A stretch of DNA of 64,000 bases from Mobula hypostoma (lineage: Eukaryota). The stretch is from the NCBI RefSeq assembly GCF_963921235.1, contig NC_086108.1, positions 23,002,001-23,066,000 on the forward strand. Reading direction: 5' to 3'. The position numbers and the translations under genes were made by a program. The notes below the pieces were generated by a model. It was not told the origin of the DNA, searched no databases, and saw only the letters and a list, made by a program, of their open reading frames with translations. Shown piece by piece: positions 806 through 18,804 of the stretch (positions are counted from its first letter, which is position 1; each line of letters opens with the position of its first letter).

Positions 806-1103
806 ATTCTTCAAAGCATCCAATGGATCAAATCCTCCAGTACACAGAATAGTAGAGATACAGCAGCTCAGTAATGCAAACGTAATCAGGCTTAAAGGAG
901 AGAATGGACGATGAAGGAAACTAAAGGAATTAAAATGAAAGCAATAAACATTATTGAGTTACATGTATCAGGGCTGAGACAGGAAAACTGTGATAAAGAA
1001 AATGCAAACAACAGGAATTCTGCAGATGCTGGAAATTCAAGCAACATACATCAAAGTTGCTGGTGAACGCAGCAGGCCAAACAGCATCTATAGGAAGAGG
1101 CGC

Positions 1104-1139
1104 AGTCGACGTTTCAGGCCGAGACCCTTCGTCAGGACT
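1104..1139 (-). ncRNA. Minimal type I hammerhead ribozyme
   Basis: Minus strand reads agtc CTGACGA agg-gtctcgg-cct GAAA c GTC gact: core boxes, stem I agtc/gact, stem II agg/cct, palindromic ACGT in place of stem III. Confidence 0.75.
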
Positions 1140-1174
1140 GTCCTGACGAAGGGTCTCGGCCTGAAACGTCGACT
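1140..1174 (+). ncRNA. Minimal type I hammerhead ribozyme (mirror copy)
   Basis: gtc CTGACGA agggtctcggcct GAAA c GTC gact. Confidence 0.7.
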
Positions 1175-1645
1175 GCGCCTCTTCCTATAGATGCTGCTTG
1201 GCCTGCTGCGTTCACCAGCAACTTTGATGTATATAAAGAAAATGCTACTGATTGTAAAAGTGAACCTTTCTCAACAGATTGAACATAACCAAAATTATAA
1301 AAATCTGAAGTAAAAGTGGAAAATTTTGAAAACATTCAGCTGCTCAGGCAGCAGAAGTGGAAGAGAACTGGAGTGAATGTTTCAGGGAACTCTACACTCT
1401 AATTGTGTTACTTGGACAATGGATTTTACTGAAAGGGAACTAATTTATGAGCCTATTTTTTGCCCCCTATATGAAGTGTCTTGGGATGTGTTTTAATGTT
1501 AAACGCTCGGTCAGATTCTGTTCGCATTGTGGTTAAATGATTGGTCAGATACATTCATTTGGTTTATCTCAATGCCCAGTGCTTTAAACCCCACGAGACT
1601 TTATTTTGTTCTTATGCAATTCATTTGGTTCAAAACAGTTAATAC

Positions 1646-4930: not shown

Positions 4931-4955
4931 GGAAGGTAGAATAATCAAGGGGGAG

Positions 4956-5150
4956 TTGATGGGGATGTGATAGGTGAGGTGATGGGGGCCTGATAGGTGA
5001 GGTGATGGGTGTGTGATAGGATAGGTGATGGGGATAGGTGAGGTGATGGGCGTGTGATAGGTGATGGGGATGTGATAGGTGAGGGGGATGTGATAGGTGA
5101 GGTGATGGGCGTGTGATAGGTGAGGTGATAGGGATGTGATAGGTGAGAGG
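4956..5150. repeat. Low-complexity tandem repeat of gtgatag/gtgagg/gtgatggg units
   Basis: Directly visible. Confidence 0.85.
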
Positions 5151-5177
5151 GACGAGCAGAAATATTTGAAGGTATGT

Positions 5178-6830: not shown

Positions 6831-7219
6831 CTAAAATGATAATAATTAGCAAACTATAAATTAACTAGGAGTCATTCAACATGTTTGATCCCTTCTAATA
6901 AACCATGCATTATTCTTGGCATTAACTGTATTTTTACATTAAATTTGAAGGTGATCTTCATTTCTCTGGATAATTGAGAGGTGGCAATACAATGCATTAT
7001 AATCATATATATTTACAATATGTATTTTCAATCTTTGGTTAATGTGGCGCATGAATTAAAAATGATGGGAAGCTGCTTCAAATTCCTTTCACCAACCTGA
7101 CCATATCGATTGTCAGAATTGACTAGTCCTGATGAAAGGTCATCAAACATTAAATGAAAGTTAAAAATCATGCAGATGCTGGGAGTGCCTGACCACTGAT
7201 TATTTCCAGAATACCCCCC

Positions 7220-7802
7220 CCATTCATTCCCACTCAATTAGTCTGTCAACCCATCCATCTCTCACTGCTACTTCACTAATTCCTCATTGCCTCAATGAAT
7301 CCCCTTCTTTCCACTCAGTTCCTCCTCACTCCCCCATTGATAGTCCTTTCATGCCCCCCACACTGATCCACTCACTCCCATTCCACTCCCCATCTCTCCC
7401 CCAATCCTCCATTCACTACCCCTCAATCCACCTCACACCCTCCACTGATCCTTTCACTGTTCCCTCCCACAGAACTAATCACTCCCTTCCACTGCTACTC
7501 ATTCCCCTCACTCTCCCTCACTTGCCCCTCGCACCCAACACTGCCCCATTCACTGCCTTCACTACTCTTTTCATTACTCCAGTCAATCCTGCCTTACTCA
7601 GCTCGCCCACCCTTCACTGCCCCTCACTCACCGTTCACTGCCCTTCACTCTCCCTTCACTGCCCCTCACTCACCGTTCACTGCCCTTCACTCTCCCTTCA
7701 CTTCCCCTCTCTCACCCACTCACTCTCCCTCACTCACCATTCACTGCCCCTCACTCACCCTTCACTTCCCCTCACTCTCCCACTCGCTCCCTCACTCGCC
7801 CC
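7220..7802. repeat. C/T/A-rich low-complexity tract that continues at 16787-16950 across the LTR insertion
   Basis: cactc/ccctc-type units on both sides of the 7803-16786 element. Confidence 0.8.
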
Positions 7803-7995
7803 TGTTATGTTACTTCTGTTTAAATGTACTGTGGGTTAACAGTAAAGAATCATATTCTGGAAGAATTAGAGAACTTTTATTTACAGTAATAAACAAACAT
7901 GTCTTAACCCAGCCACGTGCTGGAACATTCTGCAATCCCTCACATGCTCAGTGCTCTGTCCAATCATGTACATCATTGCACGTGATATTACCATA
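7803..7995 (-). repeat. 3' LTR of outer element
   Basis: Aligns end to end with 16595-16786; PPT adjacent at 7996-8008. Confidence 0.92.
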
Positions 7996-8032
7996 TCTTC
8001 CTTTCCTTAAAAAGAAAAACAATTAACGTTAA

Positions 8033-8191
8033 TCAAAACACATCCATATCAGACAACTGAAACTCTGAAGTCGGCTCTTTCTTGAAGTTTTTGCAATTCT
8101 TTCTTAACACTGCTCCCTCCTCTGTTTGGCCCATGTATGATCTGGTCTGTGTCCATGTGTTCCTTTTATCTTGTGTCCTCACTTTGTCTCC
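8033..8191 (-). pseudogene. Gypsy integrase C-terminal tail (outer element)
   Basis: GDKVRTQDKRNTW...RSYMGQTEEGAVLRKN resembles the GDxVR...W...PRSYxVxTExGxxxRRN tail of Gypsy integrases. Confidence 0.7.
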
Positions 8192-8239
8192 TTGTCTTTC
8201 AGACAAACGTTTCCTTCGATCAGTCAATTCATGTTCCAT
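8192..8239 (-). pseudogene. RABEP1: Captured RABEP1-like fragment 2
   Basis: MEHELTDRRKRLSERQ versus recalled rabaptin-5 AEREIADLRRRLSEGQ, which directly follows the region matched by fragment 1. Confidence 0.6.
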
Positions 8240-8367
8240 TTGTAATGAAATACGAATCTTCTTTTCTTCATCTATTCATTCATTAACTGTGTAATCTCTT
8301 TTTTATGCTGAGACTTCATCATTTCAATAATTCTTCTCAATTCCTTCACCTGTGCTTTCAGTTCTTC
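8234..8367 (-). pseudogene. SH3KBP1: Captured SH3KBP1 (CIN85)-like C-terminal coiled coil
   Basis: EELKAQVKELRRIIEMMKSQHKKEITQLMNE[1-nt frameshift]DEEKKIRISLQME versus recalled CIN85 [45 protein letters not shown]. Confidence 0.85.
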
Positions 8368-8643
8368 CTTATACTGTGCCCACTGTGAGCGTTCTTGCTC
8401 TAGACGGTGATGAAACTGAATCTCATATTCTCTCAGTGTCTCTTTCATTATCGCTTGCATTGAAGCAACCTCCTCCTGCCATTGCTTTTTCACATCATCA
8501 GTTGCCTCCTGTTTGGTCGTCCCAGACACTGCAGCTACTGCTTTTATATTCCCCATGTCAGCATTTGCCTCCATGAGCTGGAGCTACAGTCGAGTGACAT
8601 CACCTTCTGCCGACTGTGATGCAACATTCTGTCACTTCAGCTC
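8365..8643 (-). pseudogene. RABEP1: Captured RABEP1 (rabaptin-5)-like N-terminal coiled coil, fragment 1
   Basis: ELK*QNVASQSAEGDVTRL*LQLMEANADMGNIKAVAAVSGTTKQEATDDVKKQWQEEVASMQAIMKETLREYEIQFHHRLEQERSQWAQYKE versus recalled human DLKRQNAVLQAAQDDLGHLRTQLWEAQAEMENIKAIATVSENTKQEAIDEVKRQWREEVASLQAVMKETVRDYEHQFHLRLEQERTQWAQYRE. Confidence 0.9.
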
Positions 8644-8948
8644 TGTGTCACTATCCAGGACAAAAATTCTTTTCACCAAATTAAGTCTTTCACAGGCAGA
8701 TAAACCCAGAATTGACTGTACATTTTTTGGCACAACCACAAATGAAGGTGTATGCACAACATTTTTGTGTGATACCTTTACCACATATTTTCCTTTAACT
8801 GGAATGTCTGCACCTGAATACCCAGTCACTTTTGTATTTGTCTGATGTAACTTTGGTCTTGGCTTTAAAGAATTAAACTCAAATTCTGCAAGAACATTTA
8901 CACCACTATCAAGTTTAAACAGAATATTGTTTTGATTCACTTTCAATG
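8644..8948 (-). pseudogene. Retrotransposon aspartic protease (outer element)
   Basis: FKLDSG...TGYSG...SILGLSACERLNLVKRI; joins in frame to gag DWTIPL|KVNQ once the nested element and one TSD copy are removed. Confidence 0.85.
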
Positions 8949-10048
8949 TGTCACATGTCCAGTAACAATGAAAATAGAATTGAGTCAGGTTTTATAAACA
9001 AACATAAACATTTATTAAACTCTGCTCAACAATAGCGAAAAGTATTCAAACGACTAACTTAACTGGAAGTTAACTGCTGCACAGCAACTCTGGAACAGTT
9101 CTTAAAGTGGTAAATTCGCACACAGTCTTAAAGTGGTAAATTTGAAAGTCCAAGTGATGTATACAGTCAGTAAGGAGTGACTTCTCTGGAAATAGATTTC
9201 TTTGAAGACATGACATTACTGCTGGTCCTGTCCAGAGGATTCATGATGAAGGAAATAAAATGGCTTAAAGCAAATGACCTTTGTCCTGGATGGTGAACAT
9301 TGCACAAACCTTCCTGATCTTGCAGGAGTTATCTCAGACGCAGGCCACTATTCCTGAAAGAAGATTCAATAAGGTCGATCCTTTATGAAACCACTGAACA
9401 ACACCAACTTTACTCAATCCTTCGGGTTCCCGTACGTTGGTAAGGTCTTCACTCTCCAATACTAGACTGTAAAGGTAAATCAAAGGTACACCAAACAAAA
9501 AGTGGCAGCGATTGGCGAAACTGCTGGTACAACGTTTGTACCTTACAATAGAAAGTAAAAACTCCACTTTAAAATGAAACTGCGTTATGAAATGAATATG
9601 CAGCAAAACTAGCTAATGAATTGACTGATGAACTAACTGCGTAACAACAGGCGTTTACCGTTATATACCTGTTGGGAACACGGCATCCCGTGTCCTTACA
9701 CCAGAGGGAAAAGTACATCATGTGACCTCACACCAGCAGGAAAATTACATCACCCCACCATCACAAGACAATTACATCATGCTCACAAGATACTCAATTA
9801 TATCATGGTCATAAGACAGTCACGAGATACCCACGAGGTATGTAACACCTCCCTCCAAAAAGGGAAAATTTTGGTCTTTTATGAGCAAAATGTTAACAAC
9901 TAACTATTTACAAAAAAAATTACAGATGTATAAAATCTACAACATACACAATATACACAGTATTATCATACAGCACTTTACAAACTAATACCCAGTAGCA
10001 GTGTTACAAATATTAAAATACCACTCCAAAAAAAATTACATTGTACAT

Positions 10049-11300
10049 TCAACATCTAGATAGACAGTCAGCAAACACATTATCTTTACCTTTAATATGA
10101 GTTATCAAAATATTACCCTCCTGTAACATCAAACTCGAATTCAGTAACCTTCTATTTTTGTTTTTCATCTTACTCAAAAACACTAATGGATTATGATCAG
10201 TGTAAACTATGAGTGGTTTCTGAGTTGTACCAACATACACATCAAAATGTTGTAACGCCAAAACAAGGGATAATAATTCCTTTTCTATAGTTGAATAATT
10301 TCTTTGATGCAATTTAAATTTCTTAGAAAAGTAAGCTACTGGATGATCAGCCTCATCACCCTCATCCCTTTGGAGTAACACTGCTCCTGTGGCCTCATCA
10401 CTAGCATCTACAGCTAATGAAAATGGTTTTTCAAAGTCAGGTGACCTGAGCACAGGTTGATGACATAGCATAGTTTTCAATTTATCAAATGCCTCCCGAC
10501 AAGGCTCTGTCCAAACAAACTTTTCATTTTTCTTCAAGAGGTTAGTTAACGGAAGGGCAAAGTCAGCAAAATTCTTACAAAATTTGTGGTAATATCCTAC
10601 CATTCCCACGAATCTTCTAAGAATCTTTTTACCAGTTGGAGTGGGTACCTCTAAAATTGCCCGAACTTTTGCCTGAACAGGAGCTAACTTACCTTAACCC
10701 ACAATATAACCAAGGTAGGTCACAGTGGCATGCCCAAATTCACTTTTAGCTAAGTTAATAGTTAAGTTAGCTTTTGAAAGCCTTTCAAATAGTTTCTCCA
10801 CTGCAGTAATATGTGCTTCCCAAATATAATTTCCTGTAACTAAATCATCAATATAGGCATCTGTATCTTTTAACCCATGAATCACAGAATTAATCATCCA
10901 CTGGAAAGTACCTGGTGCATTCTTCATCCCAAAGGGAAGAACATTATATTCCTATAACCCAGATGGGGTTACAAATGCAGAAATATCTCTAACCTCTATC
11001 CGTCAATGGAACACACCAATAACCTTTTAACAGATCAATCTTTGTAAGGAACTTTGCTTTTTCAACTTTGTCCACACAATCATCCACTCTAGGGATAGGA
11101 TATGCATCAGTTGTTGTCACAGCATTCACCTTCCTGTAATCAGTACAAAACCGAATACTACTGTCTGGCTTAGGCACCATAACGCACCTGAACTCCAATT
11201 CGAATTAAAAGATCTAATAATATTATTCTCTAACATATACTTAATTTCTTGTTCAGCAAGTTCACATTTTTCCATGTTCATCCGATATGGATGTTGCTTT
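10049..11300 (-). pseudogene. RT and RNase H of Gmr1-like element (frameshifted)
   Basis: RFCTDYRKVN, KIDLLKGYW, MKNAPGTFQ, AYIDDL, AVDASD, YTDHNPL, DNVFADCLSR. Confidence 0.93.
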
Positions 11301-11337
11301 ATGGGTTTGGCATCTCCAACATCTAAATCATGTGAAG

Positions 11338-12889
11338 CTACTGTGGTTCTTTTAGGAATGTCTGGAAATATATGCCTATATTTAAAAATAATTGCTTCAT
11401 CTGCTGCCTCTGCTCTAGCTGTAAATGAGCTAATTTCTCATCAATATTTTCCAGAATTGTTGAGTTTGGTAACCCGGCAGAAATAATGTTGGGTTTAGTA
11501 TGAGTTTCAGATGAATCATCCATCAAGTTCCTAGTGGGATCAGACTCATTATTGTTGACCACAGCAGTCATAGTAGCGGACTGTTTCTCACAATATGGTT
11601 TTATCATATTTATTTGACAAAGCTGTGCTGTCCTTCTTCGATCTGGTGTTTTTATCACATAATCCACATCATTAACTTTAGATATAACCTCATAAGGACC
11701 ATGAAATTTAGCTTGAAAAGGGTTTGTTTGCGGCGGGAAAAGAACCAACATCTTATCTCCAGGCTTAAATGACCTCATTTTAGCTTCCTTATCATATCAA
11801 GTTTTCATTTTCTTCTGAGCCGATTTTAAATTTTCCCTGGCTAAGCTGCAAGCTTTATGTAATCTTTCTTTAAATTTTAAAACATAATCCAGCAAGTTAG
11901 TATGTACCTCTTTATTAATCCACTGTTCTTTTAACAAGGCCAAAGGTCCTCTAACTCTATGCCCAAACACAAGTTTAAAAGGACTAAAACCTAAAGATTC
12001 CTGCACTGACTCCCATACTGCAATCAGAAGTAAATGTACGCCCTCATCCCAATCGTTTTCATTTTCCACGCAATACGTCCTAATCATGATTTTGAGGGTA
12101 GAATGGAACCTCTCCAAGGCTCCTTGCGATTCTGGGTGGTATGCAGATGAGGTAATCTGTTTGGCTCCCAGTTTATAAACTATCTGCTGGAACAATCCAG
12201 ACATAAAATTGCTACCTTGACCAGATTGTACTTCCTTAGGCAATCCAAAATAAGTAAAGAATTCTATAAGAGCCTTTATTACAGTTTTAGCCATTATATT
12301 CCTGAGTGGCATTGCCTCTGGAAACCTAGAAGCTGTGCACATGATGGTCAGCAAATATTGATAGCGCGCTTTAATTTTTGGCAAAGGGCCCACACAATCT
12401 ACAATAATTTTGGAAAACGGTTCACCAAATGTAGGAATAGGTTGCAGTGGGGCCACTGGAGTAACTTGATTAGGTTTACCCACAATTTGACAAGTATGAC
12501 ACGTTCTGCAAAATGTCGCCACATCTTTTCTTAAACCAGGCCAGTGAAAATGTTTAAAAACCTTGTTCACAGTTTTCTTCACACCTCGATGGCCACTCAA
12601 TGGCATACTATGAGCCAAAGTTAAAATCTCATTCTGATAAACTTTAGGAACTACTACCTGGCGAACAACCTCCCGTTCCTCACTTGCACTTCCTTGCACT
12701 TGATCTCCACTTCCTCGTTAATACTCCCTTCCCAAAACAATATCCTACTGGCACCTTGTCAATTTCACTATCCAGAAGAGCTTGTTCCTTTAATTTGTTA
12801 ATCTCAGGGTCTCTACTCTGCTCTCCTATCATCCTTCTGAAATAGAGACAAATCTTCATGGTCAGACTTACTACAATAATCTTGATCAA
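11338..12889 (-). pseudogene. Integrase of Gmr1-like element
   Basis: HHCC finger (AHSMPLSGHRG...CRTCHTC), IVDCVGPLP, QSGQGSNF (second D mutated), ALERFH, C-terminal FHGPYEV. Confidence 0.93.
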
Positions 12890-13085
12890 ACAATGAAGGT
12901 AAGAAAGTTTCTGTCACATCCTCAAGATTCGAGTCCCGAGTTGAACAGTCATGGGTAGCAGACCCATCCTGCAGATCAATCTTTTTAGCCATAGCTCAGG
13001 TTATAACACAGGAGAAATCCATGTTAGAATCCATCTTTGGTTCCTCAGAGGTGGGCTTTATTGTCAAATGCACTTCAGGAAAAAC

Positions 13086-14625
13086 TTATCCATCTGCTAA
13101 GTCATTTCCTAACAATAGAGAAACATCATTCACGGGTAAACTGGGTTGTAGTCCTACTTTAACAAGTCCTATAACTAACCCTGACCTTAAATTTACCTTA
13201 TGCAAATGTACAGACATAAGGGCACTCCCAACACCTCGTATATAGTTTACCTCACCAATGTCAGACTCATCACTAAACTTTAGAACACTGTCTAACATTA
13301 GTGACTGAGAAGCTCCAGTATCCCTAAGGATTTTTATTGGCACCGGAGTGGATCCCTCTTTCAAGGATACAAATCCTTCGGTTATAAAATGATCATATCC
13401 CCTCTTAACTTGGTCAGACTCTAACAAAGCTTCATTCGAATTTTTCGAACCCTGTGGATTTACAGGTGTTTCAATATGTTGCACACAAGCATCTGGGACT
13501 GCCTCCTTCTCCTTCTCCTTCAATCGGAAACAGTTAGCTATTACGTGACCAGGTTTCTTACAATAATTACAACTAGGGCCAAAATGTCTTTCCTTCACAA
13601 GTTTCCCTTCATCCTTACCTTTTACACTAACTTCTGATTTAATTTCTGGTTTACCTTGACTCTCTGTGCTATTTTTCCTTTTAAAAGTTCTACCTGGAGG
13701 AAATTCACTCTTACAGATTAAAGCATTCTCACCTGCTAATATAGTAAACTCCTTCAATGTAGCAGTGTCCCTCTCATTTAAATATATCCTTCAACAGGGA
13801 TGCTCCTTTTAAATTCCTCCATTAAAATCTTTTAATTTATTATTCTCCCCATTCACAATTTTAGAGGAAACCCGTCGCTCAAAACACACAGATTTATCGT
13901 AGGCAAATTCCACGTAAGTTTTTTCTATGGATTTCTTCAAATTTCTGAATCTTTCTCTATAAGCTTCCAGAACCGGTTCATACGCTTTCAGTATCTGCTG
14001 CTTCACAATATCATAATCAAGTGCTTGCTCAGCAGTTAAATCTGTGTAAGCTTGTTGTGCCTTACCTTTATTTACACTTTATAACATTACTGGCCATTTA
14101 TTTTTTGGCCACCCTGAAATCAGAGCAGTAGTTTTGAAATGCTGGAAATATTTATCCACTTCTGTCTCATTAAATGGAGGAGCCAATATAACTTCCTGAC
14201 TAGCAACAAACGGTTTCCTAAAACCAGAGGACTGATTCTCGTACTTTAATTTCTCCAGCGCTAGCTCAAACTCCCTCTTTTTATCTGCTTCTCTAGCTTC
14301 AAATTCCCTTATCCTATCGGCTTCTCTTTCGGCCACCTCCGCTTTAAATAATTCCAACTTTATCTGATCAATATGTAATTGCATCTTTAGATTACCCATT
14401 GGAAACAGATCTAACATTTCTTTATCAAAATCACCCGAATTTATAATATTCTGCTATTTTCTTCTGAATTACTGGCTTTGTTGTAACCTTCAAAATTCCT
14501 TTATGGTCCAACCTTCTAGCAATCTCAGATACATCATTCTTTTTCGCCTTTGCTAATACCTCCGGGTTTGGCGTTGCCATAAACTCGTCAATATTCATTG
14601 CTGCCGAATACCACCCACGGACCAA
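13086..14625 (-). pseudogene. gag (SCAN-like, CCHC) and protease of Gmr1-like element
   Basis: ILKAYEPVLEAYRERFRNL, CNYCKKPGHVIANC, ILRDTGASQS, LLLGNDLA. Confidence 0.88.
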
Positions 14626-15621
14626 TCAAACAAAAGAATCAGGTATTTCCCTTTTTCAAATCAGATTGATAATTAAACATGCACTTAAGCTCAAAATTGG
14701 AACAACCAGACGAGCCCACAATTTTGTTATGTGGTCAGCAACAGTGAAATATATAATTGAGTCAGATTTTACAAACAAACATAAACATTTATTAAACTCT
14801 GCTGAACAATAGCGAAAAGTATTCAAACAACAAACTTAACCGGAAATTAACTGCTATACGGCAACTCTGGAACAGTTCTTTCAGTGGTAAATTTGCACAT
14901 AGTCTCAAAGTGGTAAAATTGAAAGTCCAAGTGATTTATACAGTCAGTAAGGAGAGACTTCTCTGGAAATGGATTTCTTCGAAGACGTGACGTTACTGCT
15001 GGTCCTGTTCAAAGGATTCACGACGAAAGAAATAGAACGGCTTAAAGAAACTGATCTTTTTCCTGGATGGTGAACACTGCACAAACCTTCCTGATCTTGC
15101 AGGAGTTATCTCAGACGCAGGCCACTATTCCTGAACAAAGATTCAATAAGGTTGGCCCTTTATGAAACTGCCGAATGACAGCAACTTTACTCAATCCTTT
15201 GGGTTCCTGTACTTTGGTAAGGTCTTCACTCTCCAATAGTAGACTGTAAAGGTAAATCAAAGGTACACCAAACAAAAACTGGCAGCGATTGGCGAAACTG
15301 CCGATACAACGTTTGTACCTTACAATAGAAAGTAAAAACTCCACTTTAAAATGAAACTGCGTCCTGAAACGAATACGCAGCAAAACAACTAACGAATTGA
15401 CTGATGAACTAACTGCGTAACAACAGGGGTTTCCTGTTATATACCTGTTGGGAGCATGCCATCATGTGACCTTACACTGGCGGCAAAGTACGTCATGTAA
15501 CCTCACACCGGCAGGAAAATTACATCACCCCACCATCACAAGAGAATTACATCATGCTCACAAGATACTCAATAACATCATGTCATAAGACAGTCACAAG
15601 ATACCCACGAGGTATGTAACA

Positions 15622-16563
15622 CAACGGAATAGTCCAGTCATTCTTACTTTGTTTATTTTCACAAAGCACATCTATATAAAATTCCTCACGTTCATCTTCA
15701 AACACAGCATTTACTTGTTTCATTTTATTTTCCTTCTTTCTACTTTTACAACAGCGTGAAAAATGAGTAATCTTACTGCAGATATTGCAAATTTTGCCAT
15801 ATGCGGGACCTTGATTTGGACAATGTTCCCGCGCACAGCAATCATATAACCTTTTTCCTTCCAATGTCGTCTTGCTCTCTGTTGGTTTCATCGACTTATT
15901 ATTATATTTCTTGATGTATTCGTGCTTTTTTACAGTGTTTACATTGCAGTTTTCGATAAAAAGCTCTTCAGTCTGCAACGTCACAGTCTCAGAAGCTTTG
16001 CAAAGTGCCATATCTTTTGCAAAATTTAAATCTTGCTCTCTCAACAGTCTTTCTCTCAGAGCATTATCTCAATGCCACAGACAAGTCTATCTTTAATGAG
16101 AGAGTCCGTGAGCAATCCAAACTCGCATGTTCTACTACACTTTCTTAACTCAGTAACATACTGATCAATTGTTTCAGCAACTCTCTGCGCACATGTGAAG
16201 AATTTATATCGCTCATACGTTAAATTACGCTTAGGTATACAAAACACTTCAAATCTGTCCATTATCAACTTTAAATTAAAATTATCTCCATCTTCAAAGA
16301 CAAAATTATTATATACCTCTACTGCGTCATTCCCAATTACATAGAGCAAAAGCGCAGGTTTGTTTTTTTTCCGATTTTTCTTCATAATCGATCACCGATA
16401 AGTACAGTTCAAACTGTGGCTTGAATATCCTTCAATTCTCGGCTACATTGCCAGTCAGCTGCAATTTTGGTGGGAGTTGTAAACTTTCGATTTTACCGTT
16501 TACAGTTCGAACTGTTTTTTTCTTCTTTCTTTTTTTGATTATCTTCGATACTCGATTCTCCCA
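15622..16563 (-). pseudogene. gag of outer LTR element (frameshifted)
   Basis: LQLTGNVAEN*RIFKPQFELYL, PKRNLTYERYKFF, LIKDRLVCGI, PAYGKICNICSKITHFSRCC. Confidence 0.88.
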
Positions 16564-16579
16564 TATTATTCTTCCAGAA

Positions 16580-16594
16580 CCACTTCTGACACCA
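16580..16594 (-). promoter_or_regulatory. Primer-binding site complementary to tRNA-Leu 3' end
   Basis: tggtgtcagaagtgg directly after the 5' LTR; complementary to recalled ...CCACUUCUGACACCA. Confidence 0.8.
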
Positions 16595-16786
16595 TGTTAT
16601 GTTACTTCTGTTTAAACGTACCGTGGGTTAACAGTAAAGAATCATATTCTGGAAGAATTAGAGAACTTTTATTTGCAGTAATAAACAAACACGTCTTAAC
16701 CCAGCCACGTGCTGGACATTCTGCAATCTCGCGTATGCTCAGTGCTCTGTCCAATCATGTACTGGCATATCATTGATATCACCACA
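16595..16786 (-). repeat. 5' LTR of outer element
   Basis: TG...CA termini; matches 7803-7995. Confidence 0.92.
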
Positions 16787-16967
16787 GCCCCCTCACCGTT
16801 CTCTTGTACCTTTAATTGCCCTAGTCACACTCTCCTCTCTGGTCTCTACTCCTCACATTATACACTACTCCCTCAACCTTCCTCCTCTCAGCTCACTCCC
16901 CTCATTCTCCCCACTCCCCATGCGCTGCACCACTTGTTGCCTCATTCACTGTTGCTGCACCAAGTCA

Positions 16968-17719: not shown

Positions 17720-18116
17720 GTGAGAGACAAAGAAGCAAAGACTTTTTCCTTTCATTCATGCCTTTTACTCAGACATTGGTCCCTGAGAGAATATTGTTGG
17801 GCTTTGGATTAGTCCCATTCTCCCACAGTGCTACATGATGGGAATTGCTAGGAGCTTTTTCCAGCCACGTTCTTGTAGCACTGATAGATTTCTGAGTGGA
17901 GGTTGGTGTAATACAGCAGCACGTTCAGTGCATTTGACCATGTTCAGTGTGCACTCCACAAGGTAGTTGCTGCACACTGTAACAAAGAGAGCGGACCCTA
18001 CAGTACTGATAATGCATTCTGCAGTACATTTGGCATACATTCCAACTGTGCAGTGTAGATGACATGTACTGCACATGAACTACGGTGAAAATGGTGCACA
18101 CAGTGTGCATTTGTTG

Positions 18117-18409
18117 TAATGCAGCGTGGTTAATACGTAGTGCGCACATAATACATAACGCAGTGTGGTTAATACGTAGTGCGCACATAACACATAACGC
18201 AGCGTGGTTAATACGTAGTGCGCACATAATACATAACGCAGCGTGGTTAATACGTAGTGCGCACATAACCCATAACGCAGCGTGGTTAATACGTAGTGCG
18301 CACATAACCCATAACGCAGCGTGGTTAATACGTAGTGCGCACATAACGCATAACGCAGCGTGGTTAATACGTAGTGCGCACATAACACATAACGCAGTGT
18401 GGTTAATAC
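18117..18409. repeat. 39-bp minisatellite, about 7.5 copies
   Basis: Unit taacgcagcgtggttaatacgtagtgcgcacataacaca, near-identical copies. Confidence 0.95.
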
Positions 18410-18804
18410 TATAATGGAGACGGTGAGCTCAGCAACCTTAGTACACCGGAGAGGGGACAGCAGTGGGGGTGGGGGGAACTAACCGAAGGAGAGCTAACCA
18501 GACAAGCTGCTTTGTCCTGGATCCTGCCAATCTTCTGTTGTGAGAGGTGCTCACTCAGCTGAGTTGAGGGAGGGATTTCCTCTCACACTCAAAGACTGAG
18601 AATAAGAAGTCCTGACATTAATGATTGTACCTCATTAATAAATCAGCCACCAGACTAATCATGTCAAATACATCAGGCTGTTCCCAAAGGTTGCATTAAT
18701 ATTTGTTCTTCTGAGTGTAACAAACTGCCAAATGGAAACCATGTCCAGAGGCATTATTGCTATATGGATATTTACTAGTTAAATTTTAATTATTTTTATA
18801 CTTT

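What the first reader, a model, noticed from the sequence alone, without database searches (positions are those of the whole stretch)
8033..8948. LTR retrotransposon whose pol core is replaced by a RABEP1-SH3KBP1-RABEP1 chimera in the gag-protease frame
Seen: after the protease (RIFVLDSDT) the same frame continues into about 93 codons like the rabaptin-5 N-terminal coiled coil. It then switches to about 45 codons like the CIN85 C-terminal coiled coil, returns to the next rabaptin-5 residues (MEHELTD.RKRLSE.Q), and ends in the element's own integrase tail, PPT and LTR. RT, RNaseH and the DDE core are gone. Only two stops (8632-8634, a TGA where R is expected, and 8584-8586) and one 1-nt frameshift (~8273) break the frame. 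Established: LTR elements and retroviruses capture co-packaged mRNA by template switching; both host proteins are endocytic/endosomal adaptors whose coiled coils mediate oligomerisation. Inference: at least four switches from two host mRNAs produced a Gag-PR-coiled-coil fusion ORF, possibly once functional (e.g. linking particles to endosomes or acting as a decoy).
Basis: partly seen in the sequence, partly recalled or inferred. Interest (0 to 1): 0.92.

Follow-up and report, generated by a model that had tools for sequence, protein, structure and literature searches.

The report
Retrotransposon family carrying RABEP1–CIN85 mosaic
A dead jumping-gene family in a ray genome lost its copying enzymes and instead carries spliced pieces of two host endosome-adaptor genes, fused in frame to its own coat-protein and protease genes; the capture mechanism is known, but the stepwise shuffling between sister families and the spread to dozens of copies are unusual for an animal.

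Summary
On the minus strand the protease frame runs into host RABEP1 (aa 62-153), then the SH3KBP1/CIN85 coiled coil (aa ~617-661), RABEP1 again (aa 156-171) and an integrase tail, PPT and a 191-bp LTR.

The finding covers only the 3' half. The whole element is 7803-16786, has a 5-bp target duplication, and is split by an unrelated nested LTR element (8948-15621).

The cargo is intron-free: two RABEP1 exons and three SH3KBP1 exons. Every junction examined has 4-7 nt of microhomology.

The RABEP1-to-CIN85 junction occurs at 126 places in the genome. Annotated stingray proteins hold the same chimera.

The history is stepwise, not four switches at once:
- A precursor family (24 loci) has RABEP1 uninterrupted.
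- A sister family (146 loci) carries SH3KBP1 aa ~525-667.
- Hybrids show that the two families recombined, so the CIN85 piece may have come from the sister family.

No disabling lesion is shared by more than 9 of the 30 copies, which argues that the roughly 597-codon fusion frame was once open. Eleven of 12 rearrangements are in frame. Cargo dN/dS is 0.88, and every copy seen is broken.

Verdict: a known mechanism (LTR-mediated retroposition) in an unusually prolific, recombining form. The function of the cargo is unproven.

The parts
7798..7802 (.). Target-site duplication GGGGC, 3' side. Its partner lies at 16787-16791.
   Evidence: The same 5 letters flank both LTRs.
7803..7993 (-). 3' LTR, 191 bp, TG...CA ends.
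   Evidence: 160 of 169 aligned bases equal the 5' LTR. Ends printed. Homology to the other copies stops at this boundary.
7994..8008 (-). Polypurine tract abutting the 3' LTR.
   Evidence: Sister-family copies have the same tract.
8033..8191 (-). The element's own integrase C-terminal tail (52 codons plus the stop at 8033-8035). Compared with the autonomous relative it has a 10-codon internal deletion and a shortened end.
   Evidence: Aligned with the tails of L046 and P0136.
8192..8233 (-). RABEP1 piece b (host aa 156-171; 14 codons here, because this copy lacks 2 codons at the junction).
   Evidence: Matches host exon B at L031:1200-1144, 94.8% in copy L002. Junction shown.
8234..8370 (-). 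SH3KBP1/CIN85 C-terminal coiled-coil piece (host aa ~617-661), spliced from three host exons. One base is lost at about 8273.
   Evidence: PDB 2n64/5abs matches, P0123 alignment, host exons in L042. Contigs that diverge at 8234 and 8367 continue as sister family B or as host SH3KBP1 (table 7).
8371..8644 (-). RABEP1 piece a (host aa 62-153), spanning the junction of two host exons with no intron. Stops at 8632-8634 and 8584-8586. Bases 8641-8644 are microhomology shared with the element.
   Evidence: Pfam PF03528. Spliced host positions 2-287 are contiguous in the copies. Junction printed.
8645..8947 (-). Aspartic protease (DSG motif), the part downstream of the nested insertion.
   Evidence: Pfam Asp_protease_2 is weak (E 0.0081, below its cut-off). 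83% identical to the protease of copy L008.
8948..15621 (-). Nested, unrelated LTR retrotransposon (LTRs of about 840-870 bp, RT/RNase H frame at 10049-10693). It is not part of the family.
   Evidence: Repeat pairs D4, D6 and D7, frames, no similarity to this family's Gag or protease, ends read.
15622..16490 (-). Gag (CCHC zinc knuckle) and the start of the protease. Decayed: start codon lost, 1 stop and 3 frameshifts.
   Evidence: tblastn of L008 Gag, piece W5, translation.
16575..16594 (-). Primer-binding-site-like stretch starting TGG, directly after the 5' LTR.
   Evidence: The matching tRNA was not tested.
16595..16786 (-). 5' LTR, 192 bp.

Best explanation
This is one decayed copy of a non-autonomous Ty3/gypsy-type LTR retrotransposon family, called A1 here, in a devil-ray-type genome. 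The family kept LTRs, PBS, gag, protease, the last ~50 codons of integrase and the PPT. In place of RT, RNase H and the integrase core it carries a host-derived coiled-coil mosaic.

Shown:
- The cargo comes from spliced mRNA.
- Every junction examined has 4-7 nt of microhomology, the signature of reverse transcriptase switching templates between co-packaged RNAs.
- The build-up was stepwise. An autonomous element captured RABEP1 aa 62-171 between the start of RT and the integrase tail, giving family A0. An in-frame deletion then removed the leftover RT codons. A 45-codon CIN85 piece entered and left at one RABEP1 site (GAAGCAGTGGAA) that resembles both ends of the piece. The tail was trimmed.
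- A sister family, B, carries SH3KBP1 aa ~525-667, and A/B hybrids exist.

Inferred:
- Copies were mobilised in trans by the RT and integrase of autonomous relatives still visible in the genome.
- The CIN85 piece came from co-packaged family B RNA rather than from host mRNA (about 65:35).
- An unbroken Gag-protease-cargo-tail frame was favoured among the rearranged forms that spread. This could be for RNA stability, for the integrase tail, or because a parallel dimeric coiled coil behind the protease helps it pair.
- The family is now extinct here and decays neutrally.
For: Element anatomy and 5-bp duplication.

Dispersed insertions: homology between copies ends at the LTR edges.

Junction-specific 29-mers, allowing up to 3 mismatches, with 0 hits for every reversed control:
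- RABEP1-to-CIN85: 126 places.
- CIN85-to-RABEP1: 58 places.
- Uninterrupted RABEP1 site: 25 places, of which 1 is the host gene.
- Family B 3' junction: 146 places.
- Backbone integrase-tail motif: 470 places.

Spliced origin: spliced host RABEP1 positions 2-287 and 284-340 are contiguous in the copies although about 9 kb of intron lies between the exons. The CIN85 piece spans three SH3KBP1 exons.

Microhomologies: AGAGCTG, GAAG(+AGTG), AGTGGAA, GGAGA, AGAAAGC.

Precursor A0 (L047, L050) and its deletion form (L048, L049). Their states at two synonymous sites place them before A1.

Family B. A/B hybrids L051 and L052.

Autonomous relative L046 (87% nt identity to B and 79% to A1 in gag-protease) and the Gag-Pol protein P0136.

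The founder frame was probably open. Across the 30 copies no stop is shared by more than 9 and no frameshift by more than 7. One copy (L008) has a single stop in 592 aligned codons.

Eleven of 12 rearrangement junctions are in frame.

The cargo is modelled as one helix across both junctions, with pLDDT 94-98 over residues 81-140.

The two-copy model supports, but does not show, a parallel in-register dimer. The score was 0.43 against a best of 3 controls of 0.00. That mark was reached by 21 of 30 proteins solved as pairs of one chain and by 0 of 23 solved as single chains. On eukaryotes it was reached by 17 of 29, but by only 1 of the 7 with no older solved relative. The runs agree in at least 95% of contacts and the partner's pLDDT is at least 84.

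The same chimera appears in annotated stingray proteins P0192 and P0193.
Against: - No helper was shown to act on this family. The nearest autonomous copy fetched is only 79% identical to A1 in gag-protease.
- The donor of the CIN85 piece is unresolved. Within the shared 147 nt, families A1 and B share no derived site; A1 differs from the host at one site and B at none.
- There is no sign of purifying selection on the cargo. Pairwise dN/dS is 0.88, against 0.48 for gag and 0.57 for protease. Variants shared by 3 or more copies are 21 non-synonymous to 3 synonymous in the cargo.
- One derivative (L048, L049) has an out-of-frame junction and still occurs at least twice.
- Microhomology between two coding sequences may favour the same frame somewhat, so the 1-in-3 null expectation is too strict.
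- Every one of the 30 copies examined has at least one stop or frameshift. None of the 126 candidates scored has an open frame longer than 502 residues around an A1-type match.
- The dimer is a model only.
Confidence: 0.85

Rival explanations
1. One reading: the CIN85 piece was copied directly from host SH3KBP1 mRNA by two template switches. The A/B hybrids arose later, by homologous switching inside the shared CIN85 stretch.
For: At founder level the A1 piece differs from today's host gene at only 1 of 147 sites. Stingray copies still have the host residue there. Both junctions have microhomology to the host sequence. One J2-variant subgroup includes both an A1 copy and hybrids.
Against: Family B RNA carries the identical stretch, shares gag, LTR and therefore probably packaging signals, and is proven to have recombined with A-type RNA. 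A random host mRNA would have to be co-packaged a second time.
Confidence: 0.35
2. The coiled-coil cargo was itself useful to the element. A parallel dimer placed directly behind the protease would stand in for the lost Pol in bringing two protease halves or Gag molecules together. That would explain why the cargo-bearing forms outnumber the autonomous ones.
For: The model supports a parallel in-register dimer through both junctions (0.43 against a best control of 0.00, with the counts and cautions given under the best explanation). The single-chain model gives one continuous helix. By junction counts, cargo-bearing forms could account for up to 296 of the 470 backbone tail loci. Published work describes trimerisation of the CIN85 coiled coil (PMC10786037, passages read). 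It also describes Rabaptin-5 as a scaffold of coiled-coil domains whose N-terminal region binds Rab4 (PMC4102244, passages read).
Against: Cargo dN/dS is 0.88 and shared cargo variants are mostly non-synonymous. A cargo-less in-frame protease-to-integrase deletion form also exists (L057). No experiment has been done.
Confidence: 0.2
3. The cargo is a neutral passenger and the frame continuity is luck plus ascertainment.
For: Copies decay neutrally. An out-of-frame derivative exists. The finding was flagged because it was in frame.
Against: Eleven of 12 independent rearrangements in this lineage keep the frame. Under a 1-in-3 null the probability is about 5e-5.
Confidence: 0.15
4. It is a genuine host gene, a RABEP1-like paralogue, as public annotation names one stingray copy.
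For: XP_072880776.1 is named 'rab GTPase-binding effector protein 1-like'.
Against: The structure has LTRs, a target duplication, gag and protease on the same frame, and dozens of dispersed decayed copies. The annotated proteins begin inside gag.
Confidence: 0.02

Closest known systems
LTR-mediated retroposition / chimeric retrocopies of animals (Tan et al. 2016, Genome Res 26:1663, PMC5131818; abstract and passages read)
   Same: Intron-free host mRNA pieces lie between discontinuous parts of an LTR retrotransposon. The fusion points show microsimilarity. Some retrocopies combine two or more parental genes. Such loci can be retroposed again as non-autonomous elements, and in-frame products occur.
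   Different: That paper describes young retrocopies with one or a few insertion sites. Here the chimera sits in the element's own Gag-protease reading frame and spread to 126 junction-bearing loci. It also diversified into a set of recombining sister families (A0, A1, B, hybrids) and occurs in annotated proteins of two stingray species as well.
Replication-defective transducing retroviruses with Gag-X fusion genes (recalled knowledge, no call)
   Same: Pol is replaced by spliced cellular sequence fused in frame to gag. The element depends on a helper. The sequence is acquired through recombination during reverse transcription of co-packaged RNAs.
   Different: This is a germline retrotransposon with no env seen. 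The cargo consists of two short coiled-coil fragments with no catalytic or signalling domain. Its success is measured as genomic copy number.
Host gene fragments incorporated into transposable-element sequences (Abrusan et al. 2013, NAR 41:3190, PMC3597677; abstract read)
   Same: A host protein fragment becomes part of a TE coding sequence. The donors are interaction-rich adaptor proteins.
   Different: That survey used homologues of yeast and fly proteins. It reported selection in 37% of cases, whereas none was detectable here.
Plant LTR retrotransposons carrying captured gene fragments, such as maize Bs1 (recalled; Tan et al. cite Elrouby and Bureau)
   Same: A non-autonomous LTR element has pieces of several host genes in place of pol.
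   Different: This is a vertebrate host. The copy number is higher, the cargo is in frame with gag-protease, and the precursor and sister families are documented in the same genome.

Membership tests
Ty3/gypsy (Metaviridae) LTR retrotransposon | Direct LTRs with TG...CA ends, flanked by a short target-site duplication | tested here: met
   LTRs of 192 and 191 bp, 160 of 169 aligned bases identical, 5-bp duplication GGGGC.
Ty3/gypsy (Metaviridae) LTR retrotransposon | PBS after the 5' LTR and PPT before the 3' LTR | tested here: inconclusive
   A purine run abuts the 3' LTR and a TGG-initial stretch follows the 5' LTR. Complementarity to a tRNA was not tested.
Ty3/gypsy (Metaviridae) LTR retrotransposon | Gag with a CCHC knuckle followed by an aspartic protease | tested here: met
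   CCHC motifs and DSG/DTG appear in copies L005, L006 and L008. The Pfam protease models match only weakly, below their cut-offs.
Ty3/gypsy (Metaviridae) LTR retrotransposon | RT, RNase H and integrase, in that order (needed for an autonomous member) | tested here: not met
   They are absent from this element. They are present in that order in the relatives L046 and P0136. This is therefore a non-autonomous derivative.
LTR-mediated chimeric retrocopy (Tan et al. 2016) | Intron-free copy of a multi-exon parental gene | tested here: met
   Two RABEP1 exons about 9 kb apart and three SH3KBP1 exons are joined exactly.
LTR-mediated chimeric retrocopy (Tan et al. 2016) | Microsimilarity at the fusion points between mRNA and element | tested here: met
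   4-7 shared bases at each junction examined.
LTR-mediated chimeric retrocopy (Tan et al. 2016) | Flanked on both sides by parts of one LTR retrotransposon | tested here: met
   Protease upstream; integrase tail, PPT and LTR downstream.
Rabaptin / RABEP1 (functional protein) | Rabaptin coiled-coil domain (PF03528) | tested here: met
   E 5.6e-36 on the window copy and 1.6e-41 on P0135, but only profile positions 43-154 of 486 are covered.
Rabaptin / RABEP1 (functional protein) | C-terminal Rab5-binding domain (PF09311) and the Rabex-5-binding region | tested here: not met
   Only host aa 62-171 are present. True RABEP1 proteins carry PF09311.
SH3KBP1 / CIN85 | Three SH3 domains plus the C-terminal coiled coil | tested here: not met
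   Only coiled-coil aa ~617-661 are present. True SH3KBP1 proteins carry SH3 Pfam domains.

The most novel reading that the evidence does not exclude
In this Gypsy lineage, derivatives that lost Pol spread only if an unbroken frame put a self-pairing coiled coil directly behind the protease. Host coiled coils (RABEP1, CIN85 and, from earlier unchecked notes on this genome, a myosin rod and SUDS3) would then have been repeatedly recruited as stand-ins for Pol-driven dimerisation of Gag-protease. That would be a selectable cargo rule for non-autonomous retrotransposons.
Probability: 0.15. Interest if true: 0.8.

Novelty: new variant of a known kind. Interest (0 to 1): 0.55.

Why it matters
- It gives an unusually complete natural record of how a retrotransposon assembles a mosaic gene from host mRNAs. 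Parent, precursor, sister family, hybrids and final product all sit in one genome, and every junction is readable.
- The 11-of-12 frame preservation makes one question directly testable: does a defective LTR element need a continuous Gag-protease-X frame, or a dimerising X?
- In practice, these copies are already annotated in public ray genomes as 'RABEP1-like' or uncharacterised genes. They will contaminate gene-family and orthology analyses.
- I found no description of this family, or of such captures in cartilaginous fishes, in four full-text searches.

Tried and rejected
- **Copy number from the first search.** The 1188 first-look candidates also hit protease and tail sequence of sister and autonomous elements. 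I replaced that figure with junction-specific counts.
- **Nested element as the parent.** Rejected: it has no similarity to this family's Gag or protease. Its target duplication could not be resolved.
- **Donor of the CIN85 piece.** I looked for derived sites shared by families A1 and B and found none, so the question stays open.
- **Expression.** No RNA holder was listed. In two runs guessed to be RNA (X16, X17), the contigs diverging at the RABEP1 edge continue into the upstream host RABEP1 exon. Those diverging at the CIN85 edge continue into SH3KBP1 sequence (host or family B). No contig bridged an A1 junction with 31 or more bases on both sides.
- **Selection.** Pairwise dN/dS and a singleton-versus-shared comparison gave no signal on the cargo. 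The lower gag value (0.48) is not matched by the site-frequency comparison. It may reflect multiple hits or copy choice, since the copies were picked by likeness in the protease-cargo part.
- **Earlier scan notes.** A search by sequence and one word search returned nothing.
- **Cargo diversity on this backbone.** Eight were read instead, too few for an enrichment test.
- **Heptad phase.** The CIN85 piece adds a net 43 residues (6 heptads plus 1). I make no claim from this.
Full report
**1. What is at the coordinates**

The feature lies on the minus strand. Reading down from 8947, one frame gives an aspartic protease (…LFKLDSGVNV…RIFVLDSDTE). It then gives 92 codons that Pfam assigns to Rabaptin (PF03528, E 5.6e-36, profile 69-154 of 486).

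After a one-base loss near 8273 the reading continues in the next frame. It runs IDEEKKIRISLQME, then HELTDRRKRLSERQ, then 52 codons ending in a stop at 8033-8035.

An open copy from elsewhere in the genome (P0001, 203 residues) was used for the identity tests:
- Its middle part matches the solved CIN85 coiled coil (2n64_A E 4.6e-11, 5abs_A E 5.1e-11).
- Its best protein matches are RABEP1 of cartilaginous fishes (857 proteins at E≤0.001 among 2229 candidates).
- Against a ray RABEP1 (P0004), 104 of 108 aligned residues are identical. The single 43-residue gap lies exactly where the CIN85 piece sits.
- The CIN85 piece is 89-91% identical to ray SH3KBP1 (13 proteins).

In host numbering the cargo is RABEP1 62-153, SH3KBP1 ~617-661, then RABEP1 156-171. 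This copy also lacks two codons at the CIN85-to-RABEP1 junction.

**2. The whole element**

Repeat finding shows two nested LTR pairs.
- The outer element runs from 16786 to 7803 on the minus strand.
- Its LTRs are 192 and 191 bp, with 160 of 169 aligned bases identical.
- They have TG…CA ends and a 5-bp duplication GGGGC on both sides.
- A TGG-initial PBS-like stretch follows the 5' LTR and a purine tract abuts the 3' LTR.
- An unrelated LTR element of about 6.7 kb (8948-15621) sits inside the protease.
- Gag, with its CCHC knuckle, lies at 15622-16490 and is decayed: the start codon is lost, with one stop and three frameshifts.

The finding's 8033-8948 is therefore the 3' half of an element of about 2.3 kb.

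**3. It is a family**

Thirty loci fetched by likeness (40 of 1188 first-look candidates scored) show the full form. That form is LTR, gag, protease, RABEP1, CIN85, RABEP1, integrase tail, LTR, about 2.33 kb long. Homology between copies ends at the LTR edges.

The 1188 is not a copy number. Junction-specific 29-mers, allowing up to 3 mismatches and with 0 hits for every reversed control, give these counts:

| Motif | Places |
|---|---|
| RABEP1-to-CIN85 junction | 126 |
| CIN85-to-RABEP1 junction (contains a CpG, so it decays faster) | 58 |
| Uninterrupted RABEP1 site (1 is the host gene) | 25 |
| Family B 3' junction | 146 |
| Backbone integrase-tail motif | 470 |

Age indicators:
- LTR pairs of 17 copies are 85.4-94.5% identical, median 90.5%. 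These are the 17 of 29 examined that gave an alignment of 140 nt or more.
- The window copy is about 95%.
- Copies differ from each other by about 6-8% in the cargo and 9-11% in gag.

Presence elsewhere:
- Two annotated stingray proteins hold the same chimera: P0192, named 'rab GTPase-binding effector protein 1-like', and P0193, 'uncharacterized'.
- DNA contigs of runs filed under other organism codes bridge the junctions (X7 records 25-27 and 29, X5 record 21).

The window's assembly appears to be a devil-ray species. Contigs C71 and C18 have exactly the lengths listed for the contigs of P0004 and P0123.

**4. The cargo comes from spliced mRNA**

The host RABEP1 gene lies on C71. The element's RABEP1 matches spliced positions 2-287 across the junction of two exons that are about 9 kb apart in the gene, and then positions 284-340.

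The last three coding exons of host SH3KBP1 lie in L042. The CIN85 piece takes the end of the first, all of the second and four codons of the third.

At the level of what most copies share, the cargo differs from today's host genes in only a few places:
- four synonymous RABEP1 sites;
- one CIN85 site (F to I in 28 of 30 copies). Family B and the stingray copies keep the host residue there.

**5. How it was built**

The genome holds autonomous relatives.
- L046 has gag, protease, RT, RNase H and integrase. Its gag-protease is 87% identical to family B and 79% to this family.
- P0136 is a 1285-residue Gag-Pol relative with the Pfam order protease, RVT_1, RNase H, integrase.

Their sequences show what is the element's own. 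'SEYSDLMEEYEDLF…' after DSDTE is the start of RT. 'GDEVRIQVKMNTWTQKATVLEEVQPRSYMVQTEEG…' is the integrase tail.

*Precursor A0.* Twenty-four dispersed loci besides the host gene carry the RABEP1 site uninterrupted. Four were read.
- L047 and L050 have protease, about 55 RT codons up to …KTEL, then RABEP1 62-171 in one piece, then the full integrase tail.
- The true capture junctions are therefore RT …ACAGAGCTG | RABEP1 (7 shared bases) and RABEP1 …GGAGA | integrase (5 or more shared bases).
- L048 and L049 are a derivative that lacks the protease.

*From A0 to A1.* The window's 'DSDTE|LKRQ' is a later in-frame deletion between two ACAGAG repeats.

States at two synonymous sites order the forms:
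- L050-like A0 is host-like at both sites.
- L047-like A0 is derived at one site.
- The protease-less form (one site readable) and A1 carry the derived state at the other.

*The CIN85 insertion.* The piece enters and leaves RABEP1 at a single site.
- RABEP1 reads GAAGCAGTGGAA there.
- The SH3KBP1 piece starts GAAGAAGTGAAA and ends GGAAGTGGAA.
- The two junctions share 4 (plus 4 after one mismatch) and 7 bases respectively.
- Only two RABEP1 residues are replaced.

*Sister family B.* Searching with the SH3KBP1 region upstream of the coiled coil unexpectedly gave 161 matches (150 of 286 candidates scored). These belong to family B.
- It has the same backbone and carries spliced SH3KBP1 ~525-667 in frame.
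- That cargo is joined to the tail at …AGAAAGC | TACAG (7 shared bases).
- One copy has a 563-residue open frame.

*Hybrids.* L051 and L052 carry the A-type RABEP1-to-CIN85 junction followed by the B-type 3' junction (the coordinates agree). A-type and B-type RNAs therefore recombined.

Whether the CIN85 piece first came from B RNA or from host mRNA cannot be told from sequence. I favour B, about 65:35, because it shares the backbone and hence probably the packaging signals.

**6. Was the fusion frame real, and did it matter?**

*Decay of the copies.* The 30 copies (29 other loci plus the window's two halves) were aligned to the natural copy L008.
- Every copy has at least one stop or frameshift.
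- Most carry 2-5 stops and 2-8 frameshifts.
- No stop is shared by more than 9 copies; that codon is the one hit at 8632-8634.
- No frameshift is shared by more than 7 copies.
- L008 has one stop in 592 aligned codons. It also has a lost start and one more stop just upstream.

This pattern argues that the founder had an open frame of about 597 codons encoding Gag, protease, cargo and tail.

No intact copy was seen. Of the 126 candidates scored, none has an open frame longer than 502 residues around an A1-type match.

*Frame preservation.* Of 12 rearrangement junctions seen in this lineage, 11 keep the frame.

The in-frame ones are:
- the two A0 junctions;
- the two CIN85 junctions;
- the RT-remnant deletion;
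- the 30-nt tail deletion;
- the two 5' junctions and the 3' junction of family B;
- the gag-to-RABEP1 junction of the hybrids;
- the cargo-less protease-to-integrase deletion (L057).

The exception is the L048/L049 type.

Under a 1-in-3 null this has a probability of about 5e-5. The events are not all independent, and same-frame microhomology may be somewhat favoured.

*Selection among copies.* The copies give no sign of selection on the cargo.
- Pairwise dN/dS: 0.88 for the cargo, 0.93 for the tail, 0.48 for gag and 0.57 for protease.
- These values come from 23 of the 30 copies. Six with rearranged 5' parts and the window's two pieces were left out.
- The singleton non-synonymous to synonymous ratio is 2.7-2.9 in gag, protease and cargo, and 3.6 in the tail.
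- Variants shared by three or more copies are 21 non-synonymous to 3 synonymous in the cargo.

*Structure models.*
- A single-sequence model makes residues 41-173 of P0001 one helix across both junctions, with pLDDT 94-98 over residues 81-140.
- A two-copy model supports, but does not show, a parallel in-register dimer along residues 3-147.
- Its score was 0.43 against a best of 3 controls of 0.00.
- That mark was reached by 21 of 30 proteins solved as pairs of one chain and by 0 of 23 solved as single chains.
- On eukaryotes it was reached by 17 of 29, but by only 1 of the 7 with no older solved relative.
- The runs agree in at least 95% of contacts and pLDDT is at least 84.

*Published context.*
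- The CIN85 coiled coil has a high propensity to trimerise (PMC10786037, passages).
- Rabaptin-5 is described as a scaffold of four coiled-coil domains whose N-terminal region binds Rab4 (PMC4102244, passages).

**7. Reading**

The best-supported account is a non-autonomous Gypsy derivative made by microhomology-guided template switching. It was mobilised in trans, reshaped in steps and by recombination with a sister family, and is now extinct.

A continuous frame seems to have been favoured, for one of three reasons:
- RNA stability, because the stop stays near the PPT as in the parent;
- a role for the integrase tail;
- dimerisation by the cargo.

I cannot separate these. The endosome-linking or decoy idea has no support.

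**8. Comparison and novelty**

The mechanism was described for animals by Tan et al. 2016 (PMC5131818; abstract and passages). That includes microsimilarity at the fusion points, two-gene chimeras and re-mobilisation of the chimera as a non-autonomous element. Abrusan et al. 2013 (PMC3597677; abstract) surveyed the incorporation of host fragments into TE coding sequence.

What differs here:
- the cargo lies in frame with the element's own Gag-protease;
- the scale is larger (126 junction-bearing loci, plus 146 for the sister family, out of 470 backbone tail loci);
- the complete series from parent to product is preserved;
- the cargo-bearing families recombined with each other.

Four full-text searches found no description of this family or of such captures in cartilaginous fishes.

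Earlier notes of this scan report other cargo-bearing LTR families in the same genome. I did not test them. They led me to the Tan paper.

Noticed in passing
G000 loci L037-L041, L044, L045 (e.g. L037:4819-6507): Sister non-autonomous family B has the same gag-protease backbone carrying spliced SH3KBP1 aa ~525-667 in frame, then the integrase tail. One copy has a 563-residue open frame. Its 3' junction occurs at 146 places. At least two different 5' junctions exist (L041 type and P0230/L037 type).
   Followed up: partly
L047-L050 (G000:C82:11405000-11407600 and others): The precursor family A0 has uninterrupted RABEP1, about 55 leftover RT codons and the full integrase tail. A derivative lacks the protease and has an out-of-frame gag-to-RABEP1 junction.
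   Followed up: partly
L057 (G000:C2:174612345-174612675): A cargo-less derivative in which the protease is joined in frame to the integrase C-terminal region at a shared V-K-R motif.
   Followed up: no
proteins P0192, P0193, P0230; P0010: Public annotation of two stingray genomes calls copies of these elements 'rab GTPase-binding effector protein 1-like' or 'uncharacterized protein'. One electric-ray RABEP1 isoform model (P0010) carries an RVT_1 domain, which suggests transposon sequence inside the gene model.
   Followed up: partly
window 8948-15621: An unrelated LTR retrotransposon of about 6.7 kb is nested in the protease of the outer element. Its LTR pair is 84-93% identical, it has RT/RNase H frames on the minus strand, and its target duplication is unclear.
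   Followed up: partly
window 7165-7802: A C/T-rich tandem array of about 21-nt units (CACTGCCCCTCACTCACC-like) into which the element inserted. It gives long spurious open frames on the plus strand.
   Followed up: no
window 1046-1232: A near-perfect inverted repeat: 93-nt arms, 99% complementary, 1 nt apart.
   Followed up: no
window 18039-18448 and 4931-5166: Tandem arrays with 39-nt units (8 registers) and about 23-nt G-rich units.
   Followed up: no
G000 (notes): Earlier, unchecked scan notes report other LTR families of this genome with captured MYH16-like rod, RBM25 and SUDS3 sequence. I did not test whether they share this backbone.
   Followed up: no
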